Source: Marsupella aquatica | Lineage: Eukaryota > Plantae > Marchantiophyta | Direction: 5' to 3' | Length of the DNA: 64,000 nt | Assembly: GCA_973895155.1 (NCBI GenBank) | Contig: OZ316891.1 | Location: forward strand, 18,260,666-18,324,665 | Shown here: one piece after another, positions 10,317-63,100 of the stretch | How the letters are laid out: every line of letters starts with the position of its first letter | How positions within the stretch are numbered: position 1 is the stretch's first letter | Notes under the pieces: generated by a model | Told to the model about the DNA's origin: nothing | Database searches by the model: none | The model's input: only the letters and a program-made list of their open reading frames with translations | Translations under genes and position numbers: made by a program

Positions 10317-10984
10317 CCACAAGGACTCCAGCAGAAGCAGGAGAACCCTAATAGTCCTCTAGGAAGACATCGTAGAATTATTCTCAATAAGACCGTCGAT
10401 CCCAACCTTCCACTTCTCCGGCGGATCCGTTCATCTCGTAGATAAGCTCCATTTCTCAGCTAGAGGATTACATGTAGTCATCATATTTCAAGTCTTTCAT
10501 TCTCGCCCACCTTCTGGAGTCGGTCTGCTGGTTAACACATGCTCAGGTCCAAAGAGAGATCATCGAATTCCAGAAAACAACAACAACACGAGGAGAAACG
10601 AAGAAAAGAGCTAGCACGCCTGCCACAAGCCTGGTTTTTCGCTATGGAGTTGTGAACTGCAGAAGAGGACGGGTTCCAGCCATTGCTACAATTCCGAGAC
10701 GATTTCGAGAACCCAATTGTCACAACCCTGATTCGATAGATTTCGGATCTTCAACCTCCACTCCCGCTTGGAAGACATCTCCAGGTTCGCCACCTTTTCG
10801 GAAGTGAGATACAGAGCTCATGCACAAAGAAGGGCAGACTGAAATCAAGTGTAAAACACTGGGGAATGGATGCGTCAACTGTCCTGAATCTGCAACCCTC
10901 GCTCTCGACTCTCTACTCTCGAGGGATCGAATTGGTGACGAATCTCATCTTGTGTGAAGGAGAAATGCTAAGAATGTTAGTCAC

Positions 10985-41455: not shown

Positions 41456-43244
41456 GTCGAAGTCTATGGATGTTGTTCACAAATTTTGATGTTCACTCTC
41501 ATTCAGTCTAGATTTATTCCAAATATTCCCTTGGTCACATCAAAAAGTGTCCCAAGAGGCCGATTATGAATGAAATAGACTCAAGGTGCATATTTAAAAT
41601 CTCCCATACTAGCTCAGCAACAGCAAATTACTCAAAGCGCTCCTTGTAACACCAATAGTGCACTATCAAAAACATGTTTTTGCGATACAATTGCGATACA
41701 TTTGTGAAAATTGAACTTATTTGGGCTTTAGCTTCCCCCTAGCTTTCTGTTAGGATTTATTTTTAGATCTAGAGTTACGACTGTACCATAGTTAAGGCTA
41801 ACCTTAGTCGCAAACTTGGTTAGGTTAGTCATGTTATGCACACTCTATAATTAAGCGGTGTTTGCTTGGAGAGTGGGAACTCAAGCTCATTGTTGTGACG
41901 GGGCCAATGGTCCCAAAGAATGATTTTAAAGGGTAGTAGTGACGCACACATGTAAATAAATAGATTTGTGTCAAGTTTTTGTTCTCTTACAACCTCGCCA
42001 AAAGATAGTTTACGTACAATAAGATGAGGTGAGTATTGATGGTTTTTATGTCCTCTTAATTTTAGTTTTTGGCCAAGCCTCAGAGTTAGGGGGTTGGCCG
42101 CTGGCCGGTCCGGGCCAAGGCATGTGCCCTATTGCCATTCCATGTTGGAGCCGGGGGATTATCTAGCTTTACATTTTTTATCACCAGCCCTAGTATTTAC
42201 GTATGGGGGCCGGTCGAAGAAGTTAGTGGCCAAGCGTCGCATGAGGTGCCCCGGCCAGCAACACGGACCCCAACACAATTAGCCCCGGCCAAAAGAAGCT
42301 GGCCATAGCAAGCAGGAGGCCCGGGAGAGGGAGCCGGCCAGGAAGAGCAGAGGGAGCCGACCAAGGGGAGGCCCGGCCTTAGCTTGTAGGGGTACAAAGG
42401 GGGGATTAAATTCCCCTTTCAAAAGGAGTTGGCCAGGGGCAGGAAAGAAGGCCCGGGAGAGGGAGCCGGCCAGGAGGAGCATAAGTGGAGCCGGCCCGGG
42501 AAGGAGCGAGCAAGAAGGCGCAAAGTGGAGCCGGCCAAGGGGAGGCCCGGACTTAGGAGGGGGCACAATGGGGATTAAATCCCCCTTCCAAGGGGGGGCC
42601 GCGGCCATAGGGGCGCGAGCCAGAGGGAGCCGGCCAGGAGGCTTCGCGAACCTGAGCAGATGCGTAAGGAGGTAGGGGGATTAAAATCCCCCCAAACCTG
42701 GTGGAGAAGGTCCGAGGGGGAGGGGGGCAGTTAAGGTCCTTGGATCCCAGGGGATCCCCCAAATTTGGGGCTGAGCAGGTACGCAGGGCAGGAAGGGAGG
42801 CCTCAGCCATTAGGAGCGAAACTAGGGGGAGGAGCGGCCTACATAAGTGCTCCTGTCCAACTCTTTTTTCTCAGTTTTTTTTGCGCTCCTCACTCATTGC
42901 CGAACCTCATTTTTTCTCCTCATCAACCTTCCTCTTGGTGCCATGTTCTACCTCTATTTTCCTTGAGTGATTCTGAGAGTGGCCATGGAGTGAGCTGGAG
43001 TGGGGATTGACAAGGACTTGGAGAGGGAACCTGATTTATTTTATCGTGGTTGGGTACGGGGCCGCACGAGGCCAAGCTCTGGGAATTGAGGAACGGGAAT
43101 TGGTCATCGGTTGTGCTCTTGAGGGGGAGTGGAGTGGATGAGATCTCAAGACAGACTTGAGTTCACCAACGCTCGCATTAGGAGGTACAAGGCGGCCTAC
43201 CGGGAGTACTAGAAGAAGAAGAGAAATTGGCAACCAGGGCCACA

Positions 43245-46200
43245 ATGTCAGGGACCAGTGAAGCACCCATGTCACGAAGGACTCAACGACGTTCATACCC
43301 CAAGACATTGGCCAAGCTTCTGGACGATAGCCGTGAATTGTTTGAATCCACCGGGATTATCAATTTAATGCGAGTGGACATGCGTGCCCCAGTGGATAGG
43401 CATTGGAAGATTGAGGATGGGATGGACTTACGGGATGATGGATTGTACTTTGCATGCATCAAGCGCACCCTCCCTCATGACGAATTGACTCGGTTGCTGA
43501 TGTTGCACAACCAAGACCTGACATTCTACCCCATGGAGCCACCAAGGACACTCACATTGGAAGAGCTGGCCATGTACGTGAAGGAGGCTACCTCTGTGGT
43601 ACACATTTCCCTTGCATCCTTCAAGGACCCAGCGCTTAGGGGTTTTGTTGGAAAGGTCCATCAACGGATACTCAGCCGAGTGCAATCAGGTATAATTACA
43701 GGGGAACACTTGGCCATTGCATTGGACATCAAGCAGCACCCGGAGCACACGTACGGATGGTGGGTGTTTGGTTTGAGGAAAACGCTGACCGCAGATCCCA
43801 AAGGCCACAAGCCTGGAGGAATCATCCATTTTCTTGGGTCATTTCTCTTGAACAGGATGGAGGGGCTCATCTCAGTGCCCGAACCAGAGGAAGGAGTATT
43901 GCCCTCCTTCCCCACCGTCTTACGAAAGATTGCCACCACTGTCGTACAGAATTTGACCACGGATCCCACCAAGGAACTGGCCACTGAGCCCGTGGTGGAG
44001 GGGGCACCGGATGAAGAGGAGGATATGGATGAAGAGTTTACCATGCAGTGGTTGGAGTCCTTGATTGGTAATCCCGAGGAGCCCATTGTGTATGACATTC
44101 CAGAGGTATACTTGGCGGAATTGCAAGAGTACCGTGATGCTATTAACGAGGGCTGGCAATTGTGCAAAGCCATGAAGTGGGCTCTGAGTAGGGCCAATGC
44201 GAAGGTGGCCACCTTGCAAGTTGGGCACAAGTCGCTGAAGGAGGTTATACTGTCCAAGGAGGAGACTATTCAAGAGAGGAGTAAGTTGTTGAAGCAGGCC
44301 TATGACCAAGTTGGCCACTTGCAAGGAGCCCTGTCCACAAAAGCCAAGGAGGCCGAGGAAGTAGTTGCTTTGAGAAAGGAGCTGGTAATGATGAAGCAAG
44401 CCGAAAAGGGCGTGGATGCCCTCAAAAAGCAGATTTCATAGTTGCGTGGTCAGGTGAGTGCTTATGAGACAAGGGCCAAGAGAGCCGACGCCCTAAGTCT
44501 AGGTGTAGTATTGCACTAAGGACATAAATCAGCATTTAATGCCCAAAACTCGGTATTCGATCCCATGGAAGAACAAGAAAGGAATGATTTTCTATCATTT
44601 AACACTTATGAATGACTAAGGTAACAAAAACACAGGTTTAAGCCTTTTACTATGATTGCTCAGCAAGGCATAGATTTGAATGTTTACTTAACATTGTAAA
44701 TGCAATTAATAAAATGGAAACAAATAACAAAACACAATGAAATCTTGAGGTATGATGAGAGAGTCTGGAAAACACCAAGGTAACTTCTCATCAATACTTC
44801 ATTTGATGTGATTTGGGTGGAATATCCGTAAGAACATTTTTGGAATGGATTACTGTACTAGGTTGATTACTAAAATGCCGTCAACACGTCTCAACTTTTC
44901 CTTCCAAAGGTACTCAGAAGAAACTAGTAATCAATCACTTCGATATCCAGTCGGTACTCTGAGTGACGAATAATAAACACCATCATGATCAAATTGAAGT
45001 CACAGGTAATTGGTGAGTAACAATCTTTACATCCCATGCACAAGCAATGTCACGCCAAAAATTATGCATCAAGAACTCAAGAAGATGGCTTGTCACCACT
45101 TAAGGAATCTATTCCCTCATACTTCTGAGATTCAACTTCATACAAGTAATTTTACTTCAATGATCTAAACTCTCAATCATTCAGACCAAGGAAGGGAGAA
45201 GAATTCCTTTTGCATTTGCAAGCAAAGGTGATTCCAGTGCTGCAGCACATGCCACAGCACTACTTTATTTCTTCACACTTGAAAATGACACAAATTCTAC
45301 TTCATATAGGCTAGCAGGAACCCAAGGAGACTGAGAGACTAAAAGGACGTGCCCTTTCATATCTAAAGGGTCCTGAATAAACTTAATGACGATCATCCTT
45401 GAAAAGTGAATGGACACTGCTGAAAGTGTCAAAAATGCAGGGGACGCTTCTCAAAGCGTCGAGGTTTGAGCGAACGCTTTGCAAAGCGTCGGTGTTTGAG
45501 GTAAAACTAATAAATAGTGATTTTAATCTAATTTTAACTTCTAAACTAAGAGTCGGAATGAGCTGAAACTTTCCTAGAGTACTCTACTACATATAATCTC
45601 TATGCTGGAAAAGTTTCAGAATTTTTTGAGATCTCTAAGTGCCTCAAATAAATCGGTAAAAGTGACGCGGTGTTATAAAAGTGCGAAAACTAAAAATATT
45701 TCTAAGTGTCGGGAAGATAGTGGACGCTTCAGAAAGCGTCCAAACCTACAAAGGACTTTTGTGGACGCTTCAGAAAGCGTCGGCTGAATTTTGAGGTTTT
45801 GGTCGCAACGTCCGTCTTCTGGTCTTCGGGCGGGACGCTTCAGTGGGCGTCACAGTGTCGAGGTCGCCTTCGGGGTAGCGGACACTTCTGAAAGCGTCGA
45901 AACTTGGTGGACGCTTTTCAAAGCGTCGTGGTCTTGGGTGGACGCTTCAGAAAGCGTCCAAAAATACAAGGGACGCTTTTCAAAGCGTTGGCGAAGTCGC
46001 GGCTATGCAAAAAAAATAGCTAAACTAAAATAATTTTAACTTTCAAACCACATTTTGGTTTGAGATGAAACTTTCAGGGATGATTCTTCTATGTAACTAC
46101 TAACTCCTGAAAAAGTATGAGACTTTTCTGACCATGATAGCTATTTAATTAAAATAGCAAAGATCGGTTGATTGTGATAATTGCACACAGAGCTCATTCT

Positions 46201-46938
46201 TGCTGAAGAAGTGTTTTGGAGGCCAGTTCTTGAATCTTCTAGTCTGCATTGCTTCTCCAATGATGTCCAGTCTTCTTTCTTGGTAGCATGTAAAGAGCAA
46301 GGATTTATATTGTCGATCCTTGTCCAATAGAGGCAATAGCCTCCGATGAAGGATAGCATTAGCTAAAGTGTTCAGTTGAGCTAAATTGCTACAAAAGGTA
46401 ACTAGACTACACCTTTGAGTTAGAAAAAGTTCAAAATTTATAAAATTTCCATCATTTCTAACTAATGTACAGCATTACACTAGGGAAGAGGAAGAAGCCC
46501 TGTCCCCCTGGTGTTACTCCCGTTGCTTCGCCAGAGATGTTGGCCAAGGCCATTGATGCAGTGGTCATCGAAGTAACCAAGACTTACGGGCCAATGTTGG
46601 AAGCGGCCAAGAAGGACAAGGAGAAGTGCAAGAGCCTGGAAAGTAAGTTGAAGTCAACCTGCAAAGCACTAAGGAACGCAACGTCTGGCCAGGGAACCAC
46701 TGGTATGCCACCTAGGTCGGTGACCCCAGGGACTCCCATGGCCATGGGCCAAGTCTTGCCACTGGAATTGCGGGGTGATGAGGAGACAACGTTGTGGAAG
46801 GACACCATCACGGATACATCAGGGCTTGGCAAGCTTTGGCGGCATTACGGAAGCAAGGAACCTCGGGCCAAACGTTGGGAAGGGCCACCCCGAGGAAGAG
46901 TAGGGGAGGAGGTGTTGCATCTACCCAGGGGGCAGTGA
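43245..46938 (+). pseudogene. Disrupted retroelement accessory ORF (~570 codons reconstructed from 43245-44503 + 46485-46938)
   Basis: The frame continues through a single TAG (44439-44441) and across the removed insertion: ...KKQIS*LRGQVSAYETRAKRADALSLG|KRKKPCPPG... N-terminal globular region, acidic linker and a long predicted coiled coil. Confidence 0.75.
44504..46479 (-). mobile_element. 1976-bp gypsy-type solo LTR inserted into the ORF above
   Basis: TGTAGTATTGCAC...GTACAGCATTACA termini (imperfect inverted repeat). Perfect 5-bp TSD ctagg (44499-44503 and 46480-46484). Minus orientation inferred from a TATA-like cctatatgaag near 45305 and from strand composition. Confidence 0.85.
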
Positions 46939-49900
46939 GGCCAGTGATGACTCTCGGGGATGGAGCCCCGGCACCGTAAGTGAGTCCGAGGAGGATTAGT
47001 AGTGGTACGGAGGTTGGTTTTGGGCACATGTCCAACTGGCCAAATCATGGTCTTATTGGAAGGAGCTCGTCGAGCTGAATCTAACGATGTAAGACACGCC
47101 TCAAACGGAGTTAAAATGAGAGAGATATGGACCGAAACGTTTCGGTGAAGAATTAGGGTCCGGCACCATACGGACGTCCGTACAACCTTCAGGAAAGTGA
47201 CCCGGCCAAGTCAGGGCATGTGGCCATGGCCAGGGTACCTCATTTTGATGTCGTGATGGGAGGCCGGGACCGTACGGACTATTTGGACACGATGGTGACC
47301 AGGTTAGAGTTTGGGACTCGGTAGGCCATATCTCGGGCGTCTGATGTCCGTTTTGGGAGCCGTTTTCGGGGTTACGATCAGGATGGCCGTGGCTACTCAG
47401 AAAATTTCTCAGGACCAGATTTCGATCAACTTCTACTTTCGGCTATTTCCATGGCCAGAGTAGTGGGAGGCGTTGGCCGCCACGTAGTAGGGAGGTAGGC
47501 CATGGTCTACTCATATAGGACTTAGTTTAGTTTTGTTTAGGTGATGTGATGGCCGACGAAGGCACCATTGGCCTCACTTAGGTAGCAATAGGATTAGGGG
47601 TGCATGTGTGTGCCGCATGTGTAGAAAACTTTTAGGTTAGCGGCGCCGCTAGTGGATGGCGGCCAGCCAGGGCAGTGGCCGCCGCCACACCCTACGGCTT
47701 GTATGTTCACGCATTGTTGTTTTCAGTATTTAACCAGCAGCCCCCGGTAGGAGCAGGGGGGAACTCAGTCTAGTGTTGTTTTTGTGAGGATTAGCTTTCG
47801 ACAAGAGTAGGGAATTGATCCGGAGTATTGAGGTGGAGAGGCTCATTGTCCCGTGAGGCAGGAGTTGGGTAGACGGTAGGAGACCGGGTTGCCCATGCAA
47901 TGTGTTACCTTGGCCACCAATAGATATGGATTCGGTTGGATTTTCATGACTTCTTGTGTGTTGTTCCCTCTCTTGGTTGCACGATTGTGTTCTTCCCCTA
48001 ATATGAGTATTTAGAGAAACTTACATGTCTTGGTCGACCCTGTGAGTGGGAGAGTGGTGACAACACTTTGCCAAAGGCCATGAGGAGTAGAAACAAGGTA
48101 GTCCACGGGACTTGATCAAAAGCAGAGTACGTATAGTCGGTAGACTTGATCAAAAAATACATTTCCGGGAGCGGAAACGAATCTACTCATCCTTAGTATG
48201 AAATTGATCCATATAGCGTCCCTCCACGTCCCCATCATACGATACAAACAATTTTTAGTGGAACCATGTGGTGCTTGTTGTGTTAGTCGTTTGATAAGCA
48301 GGTGACAATTGTTACGAAGCTACTTGAGAGATAGAGAGAGCTTGCGCTGTGGATGCTTGGTATGGCTGTTCGGCCTAGAGTGCAGTAAAGCTCTTGTGTG
48401 TTCCCGTGGACGTAACCTCATGTGGAGGTGGACCACGTATCTCTCTGTGTCGACTCTTGTGTGTTGGATGGTTCATGGGCTTGTCGTTGTGATTGTCGTC
48501 TATGCTCAACATTTTCTTGGTTGGAGATGTTCCCTTGGTTCACAAGTTGTTATTTGTTTATTAGAAACTGGCTAACCAAGAAAAACCCAACAAATTTAGC
48601 CAAAAGTGACATAAATTTGACTTCACTAAAAAAAGGTTGAACCTACACCCACAACATGACACTGCCCACCCTGCCCAAGCCCCCTCCTGTCTTCCTGAAT
48701 GCCCTGCCTTCATAGATGTACTCGATGAACCCCCAAAAGTTTTACTTGATGGACCTCAAAAGTGATCCAAACCATTGATAGACCTTAAATCAATGTACCA
48801 AAAATCTCATGGAGCTCCACGAAATAACACTTTTCATTTTAAAGGTCCATCAAATAAATCTATGGTCTTGCCCCAAATTTTGCAATAAATCCATGAGCAT
48901 TCCAGCCTGTGCTTGCCTGGTATTTGCTTGATGGACCCCCAAACCAAACTTTTCTCCCCATCCAACCCCATGAGATTTTGGATAAGTTGATTTCAGGATT
49001 AACAACTCTATGAATGATTCATGAAGTCTATCAAATAAGACTTTTCATTTATGTCCATGTAACACATACTTGCTCTCTGGTGGTTCATGATTGGGGTCTA
49101 TCAAATAACACTTTTCATTGTGTCCATCAAACATACACCCCAAAATCAGTTCACCTGCCTCAAACTCAAACACACTACCCTCCCCAAAAGAAGGTTCCAT
49201 ACTTCTTCTGTTTTTCCTGTGCTTACCCGACCTACCGGCTCCCATAACTTTTACGGGAGTTCCTGTAACACTTGGGTTAAGGGAGCACTTGAATTAAAGG
49301 AGTGCCTAATCTTGTTCTTAATGGATTCCCTAATGGACAAAACTACAGTACTTGACGACCTCGAGAACTTATTAGGGCCTATCAAAGTTCTCCCATAACA
49401 CTTTGATTACTTGACCACCTCAAAAACTTATTAGGGTCTGCCAAAGTAACACTTTGATTACGGGTTAATTTTTTTGGGTTTACCACCCATATGGGTACTT
49501 ATTTTGGTAACCCATAAGGAATGTGTCCTGGCCATAATTGTGTTTTATGTCCTGTGTGTAAATAAATCATGTACAAGTGCGCTTTGACACGCCCTATTGG
49601 CCTCGCCAGAATGTGACGCTTCTAGTCCTCTTCGCTTGCTGAGTCTGCCATCTTTTTCCTCACCGACGTCATCGTTGCCATTCTAGAGACAGGAGCGGCG
49701 AACAATTCTTGCAACGGGGCTCTCACTGCGAAATTGTTGGGTCATCAGGGAGCTCAATTTGAGACTCACCCAGTTCCAGAGAGATGCAGTTGTGATTGAC
49801 TGATTTGGGTCTTGTTTGCAGGGAAAGAAACATCTCCGAGCGCTGGAGAGGAATCGGAGCGAATTTGGGACAGAGATGTCAATTTTGTTACGTTCGCGGA

Positions 49901-50104
49901 TAGCAAGGATTTGAACAGTTCCGATAGAAGGGGATTGGAGTGTGATTTCCGGCATTGGCGGAGCGAGATTGATAGATCCGTCGGTCGTGTTGCACCTGCT
50001 CTGCTGTTGTAGGGGGTGTCTGTCTGTTGAGAACTGCAATTGCAGGAAACTTGTGAAAGTTTGCTGAGTTGTTGAGTTGACAGTACTTGCTGAGTTGAGA
50101 CACG

Positions 50105-51852
50105 ATGGTCGAAACAATGCCGAGAATGTCGTCTACTTTGAATCCTAACGCGCCTCTCTTTGTGCCGGCGTCGTACCTTGCAACGGAGGACTTTTCTCCC
50201 GAGTGGTGGCATCTGATTCAAACGTCTCCCGCCTTTCGTGACTACTGGTTGCTAGAGAGGTCCGAAATTTTGGAGGAGGAAGGGTCTGCGGCAGCTGCTT
50301 CTCCCGTGGATGATTCTGATCACTTTGAAGAACTTCTGGATATCGAGATTCAATTCGAGGAGGCGGAGAACGCCGGCTGCACGCAAGAAAAAGGTACGGT
50401 TCTCCACCAAAGGCTTGCATTGTCTATGATGTGGTTTCAGTGATGTTATCGGTTCTCTCTAGGCTTTTCCTCCCGTCGAAACGGTTCAGGCTTCTTTGTG
50501 CGAGGAGCAGAGATGTAAACAAACGCCCGGTGTGACTTTAGCGAATGCCTTGCCTTGCGGCGGTCCTCTCCAGCAGCTATCTTGATTTCTAATTTTGCAG
50601 TCCGTTGCCTCTTCTTGTGAACGGGCTGTTCTCGAGATGCGTAGGCATCGAGTACTTCATGTGCATTGATCAAGAGTGCTAGTCCAAGCAAATTATATGC
50701 GGGGCGCTGTCTGTTCAACGGGACCAATTTGCCTTCTAATTTTGGTCGGTCTTCACTTTCTGCGAGCTAGATCCTGTAGTTCGGCCTGTCGGTGTCCAAC
50801 AGGACTTTCGTCCTTCTGAATTAAACGATGCATATCTCGATCTGGATTAAACGATGCATATCTCGAGGAATTTTTGGACGTCGTCGTCACGCACTGCACA
50901 TTTCGATCACGTCTTCGAAGAAGCGGGTCATCGAGTTTGGATGCGTGCCAATTTGGCGTTTCGGCAAATCGCAATGGATTGCTCCGGAATGTCGCCGTTT
51001 AGGTTGCACATGGGCCTTCTATCCCGACTCTGTTCGTCGACGAGGTTCGGAAGCTGGCCCAGTGACACCACGGGGACTGTATCATCGAAGCCAAATCTGC
51101 AGCCTCAAGAGAAGGCCTTAATGTGGATGCCAAGGTTTTGGTGTACTAGTTCTTTCTCCCACGACATTCGTTCCACCACGCGGTGACATGACGTCGACTG
51201 TTCTCTCGATACCTTCTGATTTGTTTCCAAACATGGCACCTCTTTAACAATTTGTCTCTGACTTGTCTTGTGTACGAATTTGCATGTTTTCTTCTCATTT
51301 CGAAGAGATCATGCGACCAGAAGAGGTTGAGGGCCTTTTCACTCGGCCTAAGTTATCTTATGTATTGTAGAGCTCTTATCTGCGTCGGAGAACTGTGAGA
51401 CAGGAAGCAATGCAGTGGCCGTGTAGTGGCGGGTACGCTTTCTGGGGCGAGAAGTAGGCAACGATATTCCTTCCTCGCTCTGCCCAAGCCTGAGATGTAG
51501 GATTGATTCGCTCGTTGGCCAAGTCGTTTGCACTAGAGTCGACGCCTTGCTGGAAGGACCGTCGCTGTGTTGTTTTTCCTTCCCTTTCCTTGTGCAATGT
51601 CTAGAGTTTCGTGACTTCTCCCTCTCTGGACCCTGACTAACTTGCCGGTTTGATTACGTTGCAGGCGCCGTGCGCGATGTTGAGAAGGAAGTCTTATCCG
51701 CTTTTGCCGGTCTTGGTGTGAACGACCTGAAGTCCCAGCAGCGTATGTGGCGTGAGCCGCTAAAGCAACACGAGAAAATCTTAAACATGACTCCAAGAAG
51801 TCCCGGGAAATGCCGTGCAAATCAGTTTCGTATTCAACAGCCTCGTGCCTGA
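50105..51852 (+). CDS. ERD15: ERD15/CID-like PAM2-motif poly(A)-binding-protein interactor, 158 aa. Exons 50105-50393 and 51665-51852
   Basis: PAM2 motif [34 protein letters not shown] and C-terminal RIQQPR. A phase-1 GT-AG intron joins the exons in frame (477 nt). Confidence 0.9.
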
Positions 51853-53089
51853 ATCATCCAATAGCCACCAAGGACTTGTACTGTTACGAGATGGTACATT
51901 GTCGAGCACCACAGCAAGTCTGTTGCCCATGCAATCTGCTCTTCAACAACCCAAGTGCAACACAGCTTTCTTTGGGAATGTTCTTGAACCCACATTTTTC
52001 CTGTCTAGATGTAACGTGTTAGATTCATTGTAAATTTTCTAGCAGTAGTTAGTTGTGGATATGCAATGAGAAATCTTGGACAGCTGCATGTTAATTGCGG
52101 CTTGTAATTAGCTAATGTGAAGCCAGTGTCGTCATCGTTTCTCGGCATTATAGCGAGTCTCTTCTGCAATGCAAATCTACAGGAAAGGCCACAGGGGAGC
52201 AATACCCAAACATCCAATCCCCCAAGCTCGCATCCAACTCTGCTAGAGACCAACCTACTTTCTGACCACGCTACCTCTTGAAAAACGATCGGTTCAGCAC
52301 CATACTGCAGTTCCAAAACGACAGGAGACATTGCTTCTAAAGCATGATAGAGCGAATGTCTGTCTGGAAAACGAAATTACTCAAATCCAAGCTCGACAAA
52401 AGTCAAAACCTCTCTCCACAATTGCGTTGTGACCACACCCAGTTCCAACCATGATCCTACCTCGATTTGCAACTATCAATCCAGCAGTCTCACAATGGCC
52501 ATGAGCATTACAATGGCAATGAGCATTACGTCGTCTGGCTGATGGCAAGAGACGTCAGTTCAGGCAGACGAACATACAATTTCAGGCTCTACATGTGACA
52601 ATTCATGTGACCATTCTCTAAATCAATCCACGAAGAGCAAAATGATCGGATGGTCACCAAGAGAAATTTGTCTAGGAGCCTTAAAACCAAGGGACTTTCT
52701 CTCCAAATAATAATGAATGTCTAACTTTGTGTCCCCATAGAGGCTTCTGGCATGAGAAACACCAACATTATCATTAACTTGGGCATGTCAAATCTCAAAT
52801 CATACCCTAGCGCTAGCCTGTTATCTCCACATTGGTGTGGGGAGAAAACGTTTTAAGACTGAAAAATTCGTACTTTTTCTTGTTCAATAACTTAATGACG
52901 CGTGGTGAACCCGGATGGTGAAACAGAGTGAGGGAGCGAAGGAGCGCATTCTGGAGGTAATGGGTTCTCGAAAGACAGGCAGAAATATAAACGGAAAAAA
53001 AAACGGATCAGGACAGTAGGAGCTTAGGGGCTTCGGACTGGGATTGAAGCTTTGAATGGGAAATTATGTTGCGAGGGGGAGGGGGGCCG

Positions 53090-53760
53090 AATTTGTTGTC
53101 CTTTGTTTGGAGCAAAATCTACATACACTTCTAAATAAGAATTGACAAGTCAGAGACCTGGACCTCAGCCCTAGTAATTTAAAAACCTCCTGTGTTTTTC
53201 TATCTTGCACTCCTAAAATATTTGGACCAGGAAAACTTTCCAGACTGAGTTACTACACAAAACAGCCTCAAACTTGCCTGCCTAAGTTCGAGCTGGCCTA
53301 CAAACTCTTTGTCTTGATTGAACACATCCTTTACTGACAAGTAAAATGCAAGGAGAGAGTTACTGGCAATAAGAGAGTACAGGCCAGTAATCCCCTAAGG
53401 AACTACAACAACCGAGGATCGGCGAACTCTTCCCATGTTAAATTTGCTGTCCTTCGTTTGGAGCAAGAACCACATACATTTCTAAATAAGAATTGAAAAG
53501 TCAGAGACATGGATGTCAACCCTAACCCTCTGTGTTTTTCTATCTTGCACTCCTAGAAAATGTGGACCTGTAAAACTTTCCAGACTGAGAGACTACGCAA
53601 AACAGCCTCAAATTTGGATCAAACTTGCCTGCCTAAGTTCGAGCTGACCTTCAAACTCTTTGTCTTCAACACATCCTTTATTACAAGTAAGATGCAACAA
53701 GAGAGTTGCTGGCAATCAGAGAGTACATCCAGTAATCCCCTAAGGAACTACAACAACCTC
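53090..53760. repeat. Diverged tandem duplication (~350 bp period) downstream of the acyltransferase
   Basis: aatttg-tgtcctt-gtttggagcaa...ccagtaatcccctaaggaactacaacaacc is present at ~53090 and ~53440. Confidence 0.85.
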
Positions 53761-53905
53761 GGACTTGCAAACGCTTCAAATGGTGCAAAAACAGGGTTCT
53801 GTTTGCAAACTCTGCTTGTAAAGGCATTGGGATCTGCTTACAGCAAGAATAATTGAATTTTCGAGGGAGTAATACAAAGGCTGAAGGTCAACCAGTCAGT
53901 TTTTC

Positions 53906-55245
53906 TCAAACCTTTTCACTTTTCTTGGTTGATGGAACAGTGCTGGGCTCCTTCATTCCCACCAGAATTGTCAGCAGGGCGAAATGTTTCCATAGAAGGA
54001 GATGAGTAAGTACGAGAGCAGAACTGGCTAAGACCACAAACTTGACCAGAATGGGGGCATCCGAAGAACCAAGCAGGCCATCTGCAAGAATAGCAAGGGG
54101 TACATCGTGCAAAATGTAAACAGGAAATGCCTGGGTTGCCCACACCGATGGTGGTGCCCTTCCTGATAGAGCATGTCGAGCGTATGTTAGGAGTGAGAGG
54201 ACCATATACCAAGCACCTAGGGCACGGAATGCATGGCTATAGAAAGACTTAAGCGGGCTCCCAAACAGGGGAGAAGAAAGCAGGCAGAGAGCACTAGACA
54301 AGATTCCTATTACGAGGTTCATTTTCCAGCTTTCATTCAAATGGACTTCCAGCACTGGATATTGAGCCAAGTAGAAACCAGTGACAAATAATGTTGAATA
54401 GGACCAGAAATTGGCCCAGTCATCAGTGAGATTTTGGAATCCTGGCCAGCGGTCACGCAAGCTGACTTCAATCACCACCAATAGGACCACAGGAGCATTC
54501 GCTAGCACCCATCCTCCCCATCCATGCAACCACTTCTCTACAAAGCTTACCCTTTTGAGAAGCCAAAACCCTGGCAAATACGTAAAAACAGGTAAGTGCT
54601 GAGGAATCTTTAATGTCAAAGAATGAGGCAGTAAAACCAATGCGAAAGGAGCACAACATATGGAGAAAATTCGGAGCATTGAAACAAAATTCTGACCTGG
54701 AAAGCAGGGAGCTGGGCAAATAAGGAGAGCACAGAAGCAAAAGTCCAACCTGGCAAGTAGATAACGGTGAATGTGAAAAGATAGGCCAGAAACCACAGAT
54801 GGCTCCAAGTAATTGCTACTCCACTGTAATAATACTCTTGTAGGAAAGTGGTGAATGAAACGGAGGGTTGTGCTGGGAGTTGCTCCCCTGTTTGGATTTT
54901 GAGCAGGCCATGCTTCAACGCAACCCATTGTGGGAGAGCGCACCAAAAAAATAAGCCGAACAGAAGTGGGATGAAAAGCCTCCGTGCCCTCTCCAGCAGG
55001 AAACCCCAGGCACCCCTTCTGCCTAAGGAGGCCTTAGAGGACCAACCAGCCAACAGGAAAAAGAGGGGCATGTGCCAAATATGCACAAATCTCGTAACCA
55101 AATCCATAGTCCAGGACAGCTCCACATTCTTGATATAAGTCCGCTCCTGCAAATCGAAGAACTGGGCAGTGTGATAGACGACTACCAGGTAGGACGCCAG
55201 GGTGCGCAACCAATCCAGATCGTGTCTTCTCGCTGCTTTCTCCAT
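53906..55245 (-). CDS. Acyltransferase family 3 membrane protein, OpgC/MdoC-like, ~386 aa. Exons 55245-54750 and 54570-53906
   Basis: RRHDLDWLR...VVVYH, WHMPLFFLLAG, FLLERARRLFIPLLFG, WSHLWFLAYLF and AFPVYILH are acyltransferase-3 hallmarks. The two overlapping ORFs are joined in frame by a 179-nt GT-AG intron (...IYLPG|FWLLKR..., 1161 nt). Confidence 0.85.
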
Positions 55246-57126
55246 GGCTGCCGATTGAGTGAACTTTTGTAATGTAGTCTCTCGATCCTAAAGTCGGAAT
55301 TGAAGAAGTAAATCAGACTTCCCCAAGGACAGACAGGAAGAACTGAAGTCCTCTCGAGCAGATTCTCATGTGGGAGGTAAAAGCTTTTCCAAGAGGAACT
55401 TTCCCGTGGGCTTTCATTTCGGAGGTCTCTCAAAGAGGGTAGAGCTCTACAGTGCTTTGAGCAACAACCAAGATTGTGGATTTTAATTCTAGTCAAACAG
55501 AGAAAACAGTAGAGTGTCCGGGTACTTTCTCGACCTTCAGGTGGGAACTGCGGAAGATATCAGACTTCCTGATAGACTGGAAGAATTGAACTATTCACCA
55601 CAGTGCAGTCCACCTTCTCTATACGTGCAAAGCAGAACCCATCTTCCCCAAACCTTTCCACATTATTACTTGTATTTGCACTTTTCCTTGCAGTGTGCAT
55701 AAGTGCAAGTCCCCATTCACGAGACGACAAATATCAAAGTACAAATCATGAATAAGTAAATTACCCATACAGTGTCCCTGTGTCTAAGTGCAGGCTCCCT
55801 GGAAGGCATACCAAGCCTGCACTTATCCACACTATTCACTATATCATAAGTACACTGGATATCATTTACAATAGGCACCTCTCCATATGTGCTTGTTGCA
55901 CTATCCAATAAGTGCATGTGAAATTGTTTATGCACTTCCTCATATATGTTGTTGGGCTATACACAAAGGACTGCCCATACCCTTAACTCTCATACTGCAC
56001 GATTCAACTGGATAAGTGCATGCGCTACTGCACTACTGCATGTAGTTGTCCACTGCACTTATCAATAAATGCTTCCCACGTAAGTGTTGCAATAGCTGAT
56101 AAATGCACATGCACTCTTAAGAAATCCAACTTAAAAAACTATATATTTCCATTGACAATTCAATAAATCTTTCTCAAATGATTAAAAAGACTCTAGATTT
56201 TGTTGCGCATGATGTGTTAGCTCCATGGAAGTGGCCCTCCAAGCTCAAGGCTATGGGGGACCCCAATGCTCTCACGATCAAAAGTTGGTGTCGTACAATT
56301 ATCACACCCTTGCAAGAGTAAATTGCTGCATGCCCAAATGTCCGGAATCCTCCCTTGGGAAGTGGCTTCATGGTTTTCAAGCTTTCTTCTGGTTTCATGG
56401 GTGTGAACTGGGATTGGGGGTCTGCCACTACCACTCCCAATGTTGGGAGCCTGGTTCCATGGTGGAGCCTGAGTCCATTTGGAGGCTCTAAAATATTGCA
56501 CTGTATTTATTTGTGTCTTCTTCCTTTTAAAGAGCCACTACTGTAGCCATGACAAAAACATGGTTCCACCAGTTTTAGTATGTTTTTCCTGAAATTGAGG
56601 AGCAAAACCTCACGGTAGAGGAGAGGAATGGGAAAAGGGAAAACTTTGGACACTCCAAATAATAATAATAATTTATATGGCCAGTGGTGGTTTAAGAAGA
56701 CTTCCTTTAGAATTCTGTTTACGGGCATCGTAAAAGGGAATTCGCCACAATCGAGATGAAGAGCCTAGCAGAATGGAAGGCTTTTCAACAGTGACGAGAA
56801 AATCCGCCGTGAGACAGAGTTTCTCAATTCATTATTGCAGCACAAGGGCGAACGAGGAATTGAATCATGGTGCTTACTTCCAGGAATTGGAAAAGGGTGG
56901 GGACATCAAATCCAATCCGGAAGGACAATAGGGGAAAAATGTGACAATTCATGCGGACTGAAGAAAGCTCGTCCTCGAGTTGAGAATTCATCGGCTGTGC
57001 ATGAGCTCAGGGTTTATGGCTCATCGTCCATTTTCTCGTCAAGAAGGACTTCCTCTTCGTTCCGCGAACGTATTGGCTAGTAGTGTGCAAGTGAAGAGCC
57101 ATTGTTAACGAGTCGAGGCGGGCAAA

Positions 57127-60100
57127 ATGTTGCGTTTCCAGGACTTGGAGGACTCTGATGAGATTCCTCCCTTACGGGAAGCGAGGAGCAGTAGCAGCAA
57201 CGCAAGAACGCTTCCGCCACTGGGTCGAATTTTTGGGATACTGTTCGCTGCAGAGCCGCGAGAGCTGAGCAGAGGTCTTGCTGCGCAAGATAAACCAGGC
57301 TTTCAACAAGGTGGTGAGCCCAGCTACCGAACCAATTTAAACATTCTGTGACAAATTTTTCCTCGCTCTGTGCTGGCTTCCTTGTGGAATGGATTCTGGA
57401 GGCTAGAGGTTTTTAAATATAGTTTCCTTGTTCTGAGAATTTTGTTTGTGTATATATCACCTCTAACACTCAACAAATGATGGAAATTTAACAGGGGATT
57501 GGATTGTTGTGAAACGGTCAGAAATAATTTTCAACCTGTCCAAGCGGGGAGTTTAGATTAGACCAGCATCATCTTGCTTGTAGTTGTTGTTAACCATGGG
57601 GTTTGATTGAGTTCTGATGTCCTCCCGGAAGTAAAATGAACAGTCCACAGAGGGCATTGACAAATCCTTTGATGGCACGATCTAGCAGTACGAGATGTGA
57701 GATGGTTTTGCAATTTTTTCTCTCAGGATCCAACTCAAGACCGCACAGAGAGGACTTGGAGTGAGAACGTGCTCACGTCAGTGTCACGGGTATCCTGCAA
57801 CTGTTGTCATCTGAATAGCAGAGGCTGTACAGGTCCGAGCTGGCTTTTGATATTTTTTGGTGTATGTAGGATCCGTTGGCAGAGCAGCTGTGGGTCTGAT
57901 TCAACATGTGAAAGATAGGATTTCGGCTGGATTGTCACTGGAGCAGACATATGTGCCTATCTTAGAGCATGTAAGTTAGTGTACGGCTGACTTACTCTCT
58001 GCACCTATTCAATGTTGCAAATCAACAGATGTCCTCTAACCCTGTCTAAACCTCCAGGCCCCACTTTCAAGTGCATGCCCACTGGCAAGAAAATGTCTGG
58101 TTTTTGGTTGGCTCTTCCGCTCCCCTCCCGTCGACAGATGTTAATCGATAACGCATTCGTTCTCTTCTACAGGCTGTGAAGTCTAAGGATTCTAGTCATC
58201 GCAAGAGGTCTGTCATCCTCTTGCGCTGGCTGTTAGAGAATAGGGATGTTGGAGTGGCAGTTGCAGTCACTCTTGAGACAGTCATTGGAGCCACCCCAGG
58301 GAACAACAGGGTGAAATTAGGCTGGTGCGTGCTCATTCGTGAGTTGGTGCAAGGGTGGTCAGGTATGTATGGATTTTCTATGACATCCTTTTGAAATAGA
58401 TGTACCTGAGATGTCACAGGTATCAATTAAGCAAGAAAATCACGGTTACTCTTTCTGGAGTAGTTGTATGTCTTGGGCATTCTTCTGACCAGATTGTTTT
58501 CTGATTTTTGGATCAAAATTCAGGGCAGGTGGATACGGATAATCCGCTCCACAATAAGACAATGGAGACTTTTGTGGCTTGTATTTCTCAACTAGCTAAT
58601 ATTGTTGTCCTATCAAGGTAAACTTTGCTTATGCTCCAGTCCGTTTATGCCCTCTCTTTCGAACTGTACAATACTTATAGAACACGCAATTGTATCCAAA
58701 ACTTCTGGATTGCATGTTACTTGCCATCTGGAATCTTCAGATCAACGACCTTCTTCGAGTTATACTACCCATCATCAGGAATTTGCAGGAGCGTTATCTA
58801 CGGGCACCACCGAGATCTGAATAATACTGAACTTTTAGTAGCGCAATGTACTAACACCTGTCAACGTTGGTGAGTTCTCAGTGTAAAAGAAGGCAAGAAA
58901 AGGGTTCCAACTCGCCTGACAATCGCTGCGGCTGACTGCTTGCTGGCGATCACCAATGCACTTGCAGCCGGTCCTCCAGCTCAGCCTGACGTCTCACCAG
59001 AACAAAATATCGGTGGTAATCAACAGAAAAGATCGCTCATAACTTCTATAGATTCCAACTCTGACTCTGAAAGGAGCAGTTGGCTTGGTGTTGACAGCGA
59101 TGTGGACAATTTTCCGAGCACTTCCAATAGTGACCTTTTCAGCAATAAAAACAGACGAGAATTAGCACTTTGGGAGCAGCTGGACTATCTCCTCTCTTTG
59201 CTGAGGGAGCTCGAGGAGGTTCGTATTCGTTATTCCTTCTCACCAGTATGTATTTATCTAGTGCGTTTTGCTTTGTCTAGCATGAGAGACTTGGTATGAC
59301 TAAAGTTGTCTTTATCTTTTTGCTTGGGATTGTGGACTCTGGGTGAATTGTCTCAAAAAGCACATGATTGTCATGTTCAGATTTGTCACGTTCCTTTGTC
59401 AAAGTTCTTTTTCGAGCGAGGGGGAATATTTGCAGACAGTTATCTTGCTCTGGAATTCAAGGTGGCACTGAAGTTTGAAAGCTTCTGTTTCACTTGCAAA
59501 GATGGACGCTTTCATGTGCATCGTATTGTGTGTATTTGCAGTGGAATGACAAAGACAGGCCTGTTTTTACCAAAGGATTGCAGTGCATTTATAGGAGGTT
59601 GCAGTTGCTCGCAAGCTACCGTGACTCTCTACAGTCTCAAGAAGGAGGTCCGAAATGTCAGCCTTCTCGATTGACAACTCCCTTTGATCTCAGAAATTTT
59701 CATGTATCATTTTCCCCTGTCGTTACCAATACTATTGGAGTTTTTTTTGCCGCAGAAGGATTATAAATTGTTTCTGTATCACACCTGTTGTATGATGCCA
59801 ATATTTGTACAGAAGCGGAACTTGTCTGAGACTTCATTCTTAAAACGTCTGTCGTTCATTGGAGCACTTTCAAAAAACTCAGCTCATGAAGTGAACATAT
59901 TCATTCTTGCATGTGTTTGGGCGTAGGGGTTACTGACTGATAAGGGATGGTGGGCTGATATCTCAGGAGAAAGTGAAGTTTCAGTTGGAGCGGCAGTCCT
60001 GTCTGCATGCTGGCAGCACTATGGGGGCCTATTACTTACAGAGGACAAGAAACTTTCCTCACACCCAGAGCCGATCCTTCAACACTGGCTTGGTGCCCTA

Positions 60101-63100
60101 CAGGTTATTCTGTTCTGAAAGACCATATTATGAATCAAACAGCGACTTTTACCCCCCTCGGCTGAAATTAGTTCGGCTAGTTTGTACTATATAAGCTATT
60201 CAAAGATCTGATTATGCTTAAAATGAATTCACGAGACGGCATTTCCTGCGTTGTTGGCATGCAGTGCAGTAACTCGCATTCTTGTGAACCATGCAATGTC
60301 TGTCTGGTAATGCTGTAACTTTTGGATTCGTCCTACATGTCCAAACGTGCCTCTACTGGGTCTGATGTAATCGGTTTTTTCTCACCCTTTATTGTCCTCT
60401 TTGTCTCGTGGCCAAGCAGTACTATTTACAGCAAACAGAGGATTCTGACACAGAGGAAGAAAACAGGAAAACTATGGAAATGAGAGGTTACGCTCTGGCC
60501 TGCCTAACACTTGTCTTAGGGAGGCTCGATGCACGTCGCCTCGAACTGGCACTCCAGGAATTGGGGCCAGAGGTATTGAAAGCTATGTTTGATCAGGTAT
60601 GTGTTTATATGACGATATCTTGGTGTTTGTTTTACTTGGATTTCATGGTACGCGGCATTTTGCATCTTGCCCACTGGACAAAACCTTGCGAACATGGGAA
60701 GACTTGTAGTCCTATTGTACATGCATGCCTGCATGCTTCTTTGAACAAATTTTGGTTTGTTTGTTATCTAGCTGCGTGGGGCAGACGACAATATTGTAGA
60801 CCTGTGTGTTGCAATTCTACGGATAATTTTGTTCCGGCCATCATCGCCTACATCAGGAGACTCTATGTCTGTAGCACAAATGGAGTCTGTGGTACCAATG
60901 CTCTTGGAAATGCTTGATAAACGAGATATTGCATCGAGAGCTGTGGTACTCCTTGTGGCTGAATACTTTGCAGCGTATCCTCAACTACGTCCATTTGTTT
61001 TTTTTAAGTGCTATGCATAAGCTCATTCAACAAATAGCAATGTGTGGCACCTTCAGTCGTTGTAGTCATGCATATGCTGGTCATTTGCCATATTGATCTG
61101 CACACCGAAGTTTGTAAATATCTATTTTTCGCCGAGCTTGTTTCCTGGAACTACGGACTTAACCATTTTGAAGCCATCCTGAATCATTTGAAATGGAGCA
61201 GCTCTTCTCTCGTCTTGATTCTGAGGATTCTGGGCACCGGAGAAATGCCCTTGATGTCCTCACTGAACTTTTATCCATTTGTACAAGATCAGTGGACATG
61301 ATAAACTCATCTCTCAGGTCCTTACCTCAGCCTCATTTTTTAAGGCTGTGCTCGGAGATCTTCCTTAGCTGTTTCTTTGTTCATCTTCTTCATAAAGATT
61401 TATCTACATAGCCGTCGTGGAGGGTGAAGAGATTAATATAAGGAATGGGGAAGGAAAACCAAAAGGGGAACATTGTTTTCAGATTTCTGGGATAAATTTT
61501 TAAATCGTCAAAGCTTTCACGACATTAACTTCTTAATGTTCTAACTTTTTACCCGATTTTCACTAATTGCCACAAACTCCGTACTTCTGATCCTTGGTAG
61601 CCAGACGATTGCCAAGAATCTGTTCAAACGACTGGGCGATATTGAGCTTACCAATCGGGTGGTGGCATCTGCTCTTTTTGCTAAACTAGGTACAATATTT
61701 TGTATGAAAGCTTTCGTTTCGCTTAGAGGAATGTAATTTTGAAAACTGCAACCACATGTAGTTGTCCGTCCGGTATACAGTTCCAAAATTCTGAATACGG
61801 TCCCTGGCACACACTGGCGCAGATCCCTCATTCACACTCCCAGCTTTATTGGAATTCCTTTATTCCCCCGACGGCCGGATTCGGTCAGCTGCTAGTATAA
61901 GTGTTCTATCGGTGCTGAAGGGCCAAGTAAATCAGGGCAAAGTTGTTACTGAGCTTTTGGACTGTGCGACGTAAGTCCAAACCAATCCCGAGTTTCTATT
62001 TGTTCAGGATTCTTGATTGCCATAAATAGTTGAAATTTTGCTTGACGTGTTCGTACAAAAATGCAAGAGGTACTTCATTTATGTGTTCTCACACAGGCAT
62101 TGTAGAACTAATACTGCTATGCTCATATCATCTTCTGATAGTTCAACGTTCATGCTGTAGGAAAATGGTGAAATCCTGCTCGCCAGTACAAGATCATCGA
62201 TATGGGGGAGCAGTTAGTAAAGGGAGAAAGGCAGGTAGAAAGTTGTTTTGCAGTTGATCTTAGCCTCTTGTAACTAATGACTGCCTATCCTATTAATAGA
62301 AAGTTGTCCCTGTCAATATATAAGTGTCCCTGTCAATATACAAGCAAACCAAATCTCTGATCTTCGAGCGTGTTTCGGGTATCTCGCTTAAAATAATGAT
62401 GCGAGACGTATAATGTTGACATCCCATCTTGCTTGCCTGCAGATGGCCCCATTGACTTGGACCGGATTATGCGCCTTATACCAGATTGGGCGGAAACGGT
62501 GTGTTTAGCTCATTCAGATACTGTTGTTGCATTTCACCCATCCATCCAACATCCTCGCGTGATTAAATTAACTGACCTTAATACTTATTGCTTCCACAGG
62601 TTGATGATTGGGAGAATCTGATTCGTGTGGTTATATTAAAAATGTTTCAAGAACCTGCAAATGCTGTAATTCCACGATTCTTGAGCTCCATCAGCAATCA
62701 ACTTGCACATCACGTCCACGTTATCTTCCCTCTCATATTGGAAGAAATGCGTGGTCAACCTAAGTAAGAGCGCAAACAGTTTTGAACACTTGACTTTGTA
62801 CTGCCAGACCTATTCCACTGAACTGGTTCATCCAGGGCACAGTGTCTAGCAGAGATGCTTAACCATGACTAGAGTCTCATTTCTGTATGTAAAAAGTTAT
62901 GTGGTTAGAGCAGGTGTGTACGTCTGAGCACAGTTGGTTGATGGTTGCATAATGGGTTTCTATCTAGGGTGTTCTAGCTTTTAAGTGAGAGCACGTCATG
63001 CTCCTCAGTTGATATTCAGTGGTTGTAACACGACGCTTTGTTTTGCATAGACTCACTCCGGAACTCCTTTCAAAGCTTAGCGAAGAAAACTCCAAGACAA

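What the first reader, a model, noticed from the sequence alone, without database searches (positions are those of the whole stretch)
53906..55245. Bacterial-type OpgC/MdoC-like acyltransferase in a plant nuclear genome: candidate horizontal gene transfer
Seen: an intact ~386-aa multi-membrane protein embedded between ordinary plant genes (ERD15 and the ARM gene) and carrying a spliceosomal-type intron, which argues against contamination. Established: R-x-x-LDWLR, MPLFF, ERxxRLxIP, HLWFLxYL and YIxH are motifs of acyltransferase-3 enzymes such as the periplasmic glucan succinyltransferase OpgC/MdoC, and this subfamily is not part of the standard angiosperm wall-acetylation toolkit (RWA/TBL/AXY9). 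Inference: a domesticated bacterial gene that could give this lineage an undescribed cell-wall or extracellular glycan acylation (e.g. succinylation) route.
Basis: partly seen in the sequence, partly recalled or inferred. Interest (0 to 1): 0.8.

Follow-up and report, generated by a model that had tools for sequence, protein, structure and literature searches.

The report
Bacterial acyltransferase gene kept by liverworts
This is a real, spliced liverwort gene for a membrane acyltransferase, shared with Marchantia and Riccia; it was likely taken from a bacterium early in liverwort history and is predicted to add acyl groups to a sugar-bearing molecule that is still unidentified.

Summary
The gene is real. 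Two exons (55245-54750 and 54570-53906, minus strand) and a 179-nt GT-AG intron give 386 aa. Contigs from 3 of 4 laid runs of related species skip exactly this intron. The protein is an acyltransferase-3 (PF01757) with the family motifs intact. Orthologs occur in Calypogeia (80%), Riccia (52%) and Marchantia Mp4g02910 (50%), so the host is a liverwort and the gene is old, not a private gain. Every other named hit is bacterial. The liverwort clade nests in a bacterial subfamily rich in Myxococcota and Binatota; grouping with cyanobacteria or alphaproteobacteria is rejected (p-AU 0.0013 and 0.0076). Horizontal transfer is well supported. The OpgC/MdoC label is not: 19% identity to E. coli OpgC, far below the MdoC cut-off, and no opgG/H in 80 bacterial loci, where 24 of 80 have a TetR regulator upstream instead. 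Acyl donor and acceptor are untested; acetyl is my best guess, succinyl about 10-15%. It is a credible and testable case, but one of many known bacterial transfers into bryophytes.

The parts
54750..55245 (-). Exon 1, coding part (residues 1-165 plus one base)
   Evidence: PF01757 E 1.1e-18 for this frame; 77-78% identical to Calypogeia P0001; covered by contigs of X1, X2, X4
54571..54749 (-). 179-nt GT-AG intron, phase 1, inside the glycine codon of YLPG
   Evidence: skipped in contigs of runs X1, X2, X4 from three studies; present unspliced in contigs of X5 and X6 that span it
53906..54570 (-). Exon 2, coding part, to the stop codon (residues 166-386)
   Evidence: 82% identical to P0001 residues 163-384; covered by contigs of X1, X2, X4
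55246..55309 (-). Likely part of the 5' untranslated region
   Evidence: the spliced contig of X1 aligns without a break up to 55309 (table 8); a relative's transcript, so approximate
55171..55215 (-). TM1 motif D11-x2-R14-x10-H25 (AT3 signature)
   Evidence: motif defined in PMC12423673 and PMC9558356
55045..55071 (-). TM2 motif MPLFFLLAG (FxxxxG)
   Evidence: PMC12423673
54979..54990 (-). RxxR motif, R86-R89
   Evidence: PMC9558356
54787..54801 (-). HLWFL motif, residues 149-153, shared with E. coli OpgC and the bacterial relatives
54407..54424 (-). DDWANF motif, residues 215-220, shared by the liverwort proteins and their near bacterial subfamily and absent from E. coli OpgC
54107..54118 (-). 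YILH motif, residues 317-320 (late-helix histidine)
   Evidence: PMC2824669 lists a second conserved His in helix 9
50099..52048 (+). Left neighbour: spliced plant gene with a PAM2 motif (ERD15-like); context, not part of the transferred gene
   Evidence: PF07145; contigs of relatives
56900..61317 (+). Right neighbour: multi-exon spliced gene, family not identified here; context
   Evidence: GT-AG joints in contigs of relatives; no family at cut-off in five frames

Best explanation
The locus is a spliced liverwort gene for an acyltransferase-3 membrane protein, likely gained once from a bacterium before leafy and complex-thalloid liverworts split, and predicted to O-acylate (most likely acetylate) a sugar hydroxyl on a lumenal or extracellular glycoconjugate. 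Shown: gene structure, splicing in relatives, family, motifs, orthologs in three other liverwort genera, nesting among bacteria. Predicted: the TmAT fold (model of the Calypogeia ortholog). Inferred from the family: acyl-CoA enters from the cytosol through the pocket formed by DxxR, FxxxxG and RxxR, and the TM1 histidine helps pass the acyl group to an acceptor on the far side. Inferred from the lack of an N-terminal extension before the first helix: it sits in the secretory pathway, not in plastids or mitochondria. Untested: donor (my odds: acetyl 55-60%, succinyl 10-15%, other 25-30%) and acceptor (wall or mucilage glycan about as likely as a glycolipid or glycosylated metabolite). The transfer alone I put at about 0.9.
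For: Orthologs named Calypogeia fissa, Riccia fluitans, R. sorocarpa and Marchantia polymorpha top; identities 80, 52 and 50%. In the 120 rows listed in each, no other plant, alga, fungus or animal is named. In a 413-sequence FastTree the plant clade has 8 rows (support 1.0): the window, six named liverwort proteins and one unnamed exon-1-like fragment. IQ-TREE quick trees give the liverwort clade SH-aLRT 100, with leafy and thalloid pairs as sisters, and place it inside a bacterial group. AU tests reject a clade with 6 cyanobacteria (p 0.0013) and with 3 alphaproteobacteria (p 0.0076). The 12 best of 80 GTDB loci are all Myxococcota, Binatota or delta-proteobacterial MAGs. The model (pLDDT 83, pTM 0.86) matches HGSNAT at Z 15.5 (rmsd 4.9, 295 aligned) and GWT1 at Z 9.8 (rmsd 5.3, 290 aligned), with the next row at Z 5.3. 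Four runs holding the DNA cover the gene at depths like those of the flanking genes. GC3 is 0.52 against 0.85-0.95 in four bacterial relatives.
Against: No activity, donor, acceptor or location was tested. The immediate sisters are unnamed metagenomic proteins, with support 96, 89 and 0.78-0.97 in different trees, so the donor phylum is not fixed. The liverwort stem is long (about 1.0 changes per column), the careful trees did not finish, and several rows fail the composition check. Only the top 120-150 rows of each search were shown (1220 and 5455 hits), and most rows carry no name, so distant eukaryotic AT3 proteins were not placed. Foldseek found no PDB match at E<=0.001. No RNA holder of the window's own species was listed. 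A simple hydropathy scan found 7 segments, not 10.
Confidence: 0.6

Rival explanations
1. It is a functional OpgC/MdoC equivalent that succinylates a plant glucan.
For: MdoC is the best-scoring NCBIfam model; HLWFL and the general motifs are shared with E. coli OpgC; JGI labels some relatives 'glucan biosynthesis protein C'.
Against: Scores 41-75 bits against a cut-off of 338, while E. coli OpgC scores 637; 19% identity; E. coli OpgC is a very long branch outside the subfamily; no OpgG or OpgH match in 80 loci averaging about 10 kb; JGI gives the same subfamily three other labels too.
Confidence: 0.1
2. The acceptor is not a sugar but a lipophilic small molecule (a terpenoid, phenolic or lipid), or the protein only moves acyl groups across a membrane for a partner.
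For: A TetR regulator gene lies directly upstream in 24 of 80 bacterial loci, which suggests induction by a small molecule. Other neighbours include an endoglycoceramidase-like GH5 in 3 Binatia loci, MAPEG, a fatty acid hydroxylase and PQQ or DUF2147 fusions. Some bacterial AT3 enzymes acylate macrolides (PMC9558356).
Against: Nearly all characterised AT3 acceptors in the passages read are sugars, including those on antibiotics. The 24 loci are related, so they are not independent. Bacterial context need not carry over to the plant.
Confidence: 0.17
3. The gene entered earlier (land-plant or streptophyte ancestor, or through an organelle) and was lost outside liverworts, or it came by way of a fungus.
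For: Large bursts of transfer in streptophyte and embryophyte ancestors are reported (PMC12513842); fungi have their own bacterial-derived 10TM acyltransferases (PMC2824669); my searches show only top rows.
Against: No non-liverwort plant or fungal name among the listed rows or among 30 looked-up proteins and their cluster members; AU tests reject cyanobacterial and alphaproteobacterial sisters.
Confidence: 0.12
4. It is bacterial contamination or a decaying pseudogene.
For: The two halves are in different frames, and no single listed contig spans the gene and a neighbouring gene's coding exons.
Against: The frame change is a spliced intron; orthologs lie on 3.5-57 Mb plant scaffolds; the gene tree follows liverwort groups; depth matches the neighbours in two studies.
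Confidence: 0.01

Closest known systems
Acyltransferase-3 family (PF01757), TmAT superfamily
   Same: Pfam hit above cut-off, DxxRx10H, FxxxxG, RxxR and late His motifs, HGSNAT-like predicted fold, stand-alone architecture without an SGNH domain.
   Different: Belongs to an uncharacterised subfamily marked by RWPGxQNLxDDWANF, and is encoded by a spliced plant nuclear gene.
Marchantia polymorpha Mp4g02910 (Mapoly0080s0008) and its Calypogeia and Riccia orthologs
   Same: One clade; 50-80% identity; similar length (384-389 aa for the full-length ones); an alternative Marchantia model resumes just after the YLPG junction, which suggests the same intron (inference).
   Different: Different species. 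No paper in the library names either identifier.
E. coli OpgC/MdoC glucan succinyltransferase (NF003014)
   Same: Same family and size; best-scoring named NCBIfam model; shared HLWFL.
   Different: 19% identity, far below cut-off, distant in the tree, lacks the DDWANF motif; the bacterial relatives of the liverwort gene have no opgG/H nearby.
Plant RWA/Cas1 proteins (PF07779) with TBL and AXY9
   Same: RWA/Cas1 is a distant member of the same 10TM superfamily (PMC2824669); Marchantia already has TBL enzymes that acetylate mannan and pectin (PMC11360243).
   Different: No PF07779 hit for the window frames; separate origin; so this is an extra enzyme, not the standard wall-acetylation route.
Other bacterial transfers into bryophytes and other eukaryotic AT3 groups
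   Same: 1,809 transferred gene families are reported in 49 streptophytes (PMC12513842); three other eukaryotic 10TM acyltransferase groups are said to come from independent bacterial transfers (PMC2824669).
   Different: A liverwort AT3 group is not mentioned in the passages read; the spreadsheet listing the 1,809 families could not be read.

Membership tests
AT3 (PF01757) | Pfam score above the curated cut-off | tested here: met
   67.8 bits against 31 for the exon-1 frame; the exon-2 frame alone scores 14.2; orthologs carry PF01757
AT3 (PF01757) | DxxR-x10-H in TM1, FxxxxG in TM2, RxxR after it, late His | tested here: met
   D11/R14/H25, MPLFFLLAG, R86/R89, H320; definitions
AT3 (PF01757) | About ten membrane helices in the TmAT fold | tested here: met
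   Model of the Calypogeia ortholog (80% identical), not of the window's protein: all-helical, Z 15.5 to HGSNAT, rmsd 4.9, 295 aligned; membrane helices were not counted on the model and a crude hydropathy scan found 7
AT3 (PF01757) | Acyl-CoA-dependent transfer to an extracytosolic acceptor | not testable with these tools
   needs an assay
OpgC/MdoC | NCBIfam NF003014 cut-off of 338 bits | tested here: not met
   44.7 (exon 1), 41-75 (three full orthologs), 89-99 (six near bacteria); E. coli OpgC 637
OpgC/MdoC | Relatives encoded with opgG/opgH | tested here: not met
   0 of 80 bacterial loci match E. coli OpgG or OpgH by tblastn at E<=1e-3; some loci are short and the rest of those genomes was not searched
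OpgC/MdoC | Succinyl transfer to glucan | not testable with these tools
   needs complementation or an assay
Horizontal transfer from bacteria | Nested among bacterial sequences with support | tested here: met
   quick trees only, long stem
Horizontal transfer from bacteria | Not of plastid or mitochondrial endosymbiont origin | tested here: met
   AU p 0.0013 and 0.0076; groups chosen after the first trees; one cyanobacterial MAG row (L017) left out
Horizontal transfer from bacteria | Integrated in the host genome and expressed | tested here: met
   spliced contigs in relatives, matching DNA depth, orthologs on Mb-size scaffolds; no long read and no RNA of this species
Horizontal transfer from bacteria | Absent from other plant and algal lineages | tested here: inconclusive
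   none named in the listed rows, but only top rows are shown and most have no name
RWA/Cas1 (PF07779) | Cas1_AcylT domain match | tested here: not met
   no hit at E<=0.1 for either frame

The most novel reading that the evidence does not exclude
Liverworts have carried a bacterial single-protein acylation route since early in their history, and use it to put a non-acetyl group such as succinyl on a wall, mucilage or glycolipid sugar, a decoration outside the RWA/TBL/AXY9 system that may shape water holding or microbe contact.
Probability: 0.15. Interest if true: 0.72.

Novelty: new member of a known kind. Interest (0 to 1): 0.4.

Why it matters
It gives an old, conserved, liverwort-restricted enzyme candidate whose ortholog sits in a model plant with knockouts, so its acceptor can be found directly. 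Few eukaryotic AT3 proteins have a known substrate (PMC9558356), and the bacterial subfamily is uncharacterised too. Against that, bacterial transfers into bryophytes number in the hundreds per genome (229 per species on average, PMC12513842), so the transfer itself would not surprise a specialist.

Tried and rejected
No whole genome is held for this window, so copy number and paralogs were not checked. Other intron readings, such as 54696-54599 or 54696-54608 (413 or 416 aa), keep the frame but disagree with homologs and spliced contigs. No RNA holder was listed for this species. A profile search of PDB sequences found nothing, and Foldseek found nothing at E<=0.001, though HGSNAT ranked first. 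Plasmid search gave 12 records at 22-35% identity with generic names. The ESM Atlas returned generic AT3 clusters only. No TetR homolog lies in the window. A C-terminal dilysine ER signal is seen in Calypogeia (KKGN) but not in the window, Riccia or Marchantia, so I did not use it. A first attempt to list bacterial neighbours by longest ORF was spoiled by shadow frames and replaced by recurrence clustering of 49 of the 80 loci. Careful IQ-TREE runs did not finish. Literature: searches for Mp4g02910 and Mapoly0080s0008 found 0 papers; searches on HGT+OpgC+plant, liverwort+HGT+acyltransferase+Marchantia and acyltransferase 3+liverwort gave no listing about this gene (listings only). Supplements of PMC11906373, PMC12890914 and the one readable file of PMC12513842 lack the identifiers. 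The Marchantia genome paper is not held. Earlier scan findings: none.

Full report
Observation. The minus strand holds two overlapping frames, 55287-54616 and 55033-53906. Both match PF01757, the first above the cut-off (67.8 bits against 31) and the second weakly. An intron must join them, but 400 GT/GC-AG joins would restore a frame, so outside evidence was needed. The Calypogeia ortholog switches frame at YLPG. Contigs from runs X1, X2 and X4 (three studies, related organisms about 90-93% identical here) skip this stretch; no listed piece of X3 crosses it. The same runs lack the introns of the right-hand neighbour, so they are transcript-derived even though the tool only guesses RNA. No RNA holder of the window's own species was listed.

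Host and integration. The best hits are named Calypogeia fissa, Riccia fluitans, R. sorocarpa and Marchantia polymorpha Mp4g02910, on scaffolds of 3.5-57 Mb. Full-length identities are 80, 52 and 50% for Calypogeia, R. fluitans and Marchantia. The window is therefore most likely a leafy liverwort (inference). Elsewhere it carries ordinary plant genes: a heme o synthase, a DXS, a PP2C and an RRM protein. Four runs from two studies and two organism codes cover the gene at depths similar to the flanking genes, for example 61-81 in the gene against 55-101 in the other bins from 50.1-55.8 kb and 57.0-64 kb in X7. One of these may be the source sample. One contig spans 52333-55923 without a difference, but no listed piece links the gene to a neighbour's coding exons.

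Distribution. Three word-index searches (120 rows listed of 199, 1220 and 151 hits) and one full HMMER search (150 listed of 5455) show no named eukaryote other than liverworts. Most rows have no name. Thirty proteins were looked up; the named members were the liverwort proteins, Myxococcota, Deltaproteobacteria, Desulfomonilia, 'bacterium' or JGI functional labels. One unnamed 166-aa protein, P0219, ends at YLPG and is sister to the window; it looks like exon 1 of another leafy liverwort. Absence from mosses, hornworts, ferns, algae and fungi is therefore suggested, not proven.

Phylogeny. A FastTree of 413 AT3 domains (of 443 sequences; short, split and duplicate ones dropped) gives an 8-row liverwort clade with support 1.0, nested several nodes deep among bacteria. 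IQ-TREE quick trees of 69 and 40 rows agree: liverwort clade SH-aLRT 100, window with Calypogeia and Riccia with Marchantia, which follows the split between leafy and complex-thalloid liverworts (the split is from my own knowledge, roughly 400 million years). The nearest rows are unnamed metagenomic proteins (96 and 89). The 12 best GTDB loci of 80 are Myxococcota, Binatota or delta-proteobacterial MAGs, but no tree gives a supported branch that joins the liverworts to those alone, so the donor is only 'this subfamily'. AU tests on the 40-row set reject a clade with six cyanobacteria (p 0.0013) and with three alphaproteobacteria (p 0.0076). Caveats: the careful searches did not finish, the stem is long, the groups were picked after the first trees, and L017, a Pseudanabaena MAG that sits with Binatota and carries their TetR cassette, was left out. 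GC3 is 0.52 against 0.85-0.95 in four bacterial relatives, which fits long residence.

Protein. The AT3 signature residues are intact: D11-R14-H25, MPLFFLLAG, R86-R89, HLWFL and YILH. In the passages read, PMC12423673 ties the superfamily's conserved residues to acyl-CoA binding and the TM1 His to function, and PMC9558356 names the same motifs. A model of the Calypogeia ortholog (pLDDT 83, pTM 0.86) matches HGSNAT (Z 15.5, rmsd 4.9, 295 aligned; Z 12.8 for a second entry) and GWT1 (Z 9.8), with unrelated rows at 5.3 and below. Foldseek ranked HGSNAT first but not significantly. The first helix starts at residue 8, leaving no room for a transit peptide.

Is it OpgC? No, by every test available. 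The MdoC model is the best NCBIfam hit but gives 41-75 bits for the liverwort proteins and 89-99 for near bacteria, against a cut-off of 338; E. coli OpgC scores 637. Identity to E. coli OpgC is 19% against 35-40% to the near bacteria. None of 80 bacterial loci matches OpgG or OpgH. Instead, one TetR family lies directly upstream in 24 of 80 loci, 23 on the same strand and one divergent. Other contexts are fusions to DUF2147 or a PQQ dehydrogenase and, in three Binatia loci, an endoglycoceramidase-like GH5 below its cut-off. This points to an inducible role in the donors and not to periplasmic glucan synthesis (inference). AT3 enzymes use acetyl, succinyl, propionyl or isovaleryl donors, and nothing seen here tells which.

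Mechanism. Most likely the protein binds cytosolic acyl-CoA in the conserved pocket and acylates a sugar hydroxyl on the lumenal or outer side of a secretory membrane (inferred from the family). I favour acetyl on base rates. The acceptor may be a wall or mucilage glycan, or a glycolipid or glycosylated metabolite. Marchantia already has TBL acetyltransferases for mannan and pectin (PMC11360243, passages), so this enzyme would be an addition with a narrower job.

What is known. PMC2824669 (passages) reports several eukaryotic 10TM acyltransferase groups from independent bacterial transfers, naming nematodes and fungi. PMC12513842 (passages) reports 1,809 transferred families in 49 streptophytes and 229 per bryophyte on average. 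Its spreadsheet was too large to read and may well list this gene. The two Marchantia identifiers occur in no paper of the library nor in the readable supplements searched. PMC12448838 has no occurrence of 'acyltransferase'. Papers not named here were seen as listings only.

Verdict. The OpgC label and the succinylation idea are not supported, and the gene is liverwort-wide and not private to this lineage. It is a new member of a known kind, with a clean experimental handle in Marchantia. Interest 0.4.

Noticed in passing
window 53090-53782: A diverged tandem duplication with about 345-nt spacing (83-96% identical blocks) lies just downstream of the gene's stop codon.
   Followed up: partly
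window 54570-54577 and 54749-54756: Both splice junctions carry the same eight bases, and the intron end also reads YLPG in the exon-2 frame. This could be a trace of intron gain by duplication, or chance plus splice-site consensus.
   Followed up: no
window 8748-10358 (-): Uninterrupted 536-aa frame for a heme o synthase (COX10-like), above the TIGR01473 cut-off, with a long N-terminal extension and no apparent intron.
   Followed up: partly
window 43182-44441 (+): A 419-aa frame in a GC-rich stretch with no Pfam or NCBIfam match and an acidic, coiled-coil-like end; possibly part of a transposable element.
   Followed up: no
window 45000-49400 and 55800-57000: High-copy repeats by read depth, with an extreme peak near 48170-48800.
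   Followed up: no
L003-L009, L014, L023, L036 and others, directly upstream of the match: A conserved TetR + AT3 two-gene cassette across Myxococcota, Binatota and Actinomycetota MAGs, in 24 of 80 loci, with AT3 fused to DUF2147 or a PQQ dehydrogenase in some; I did not search the literature for it.
   Followed up: partly
proteins P0121 and P0001: Calypogeia fissa has two copies, 97% identical, on different scaffolds.
   Followed up: no
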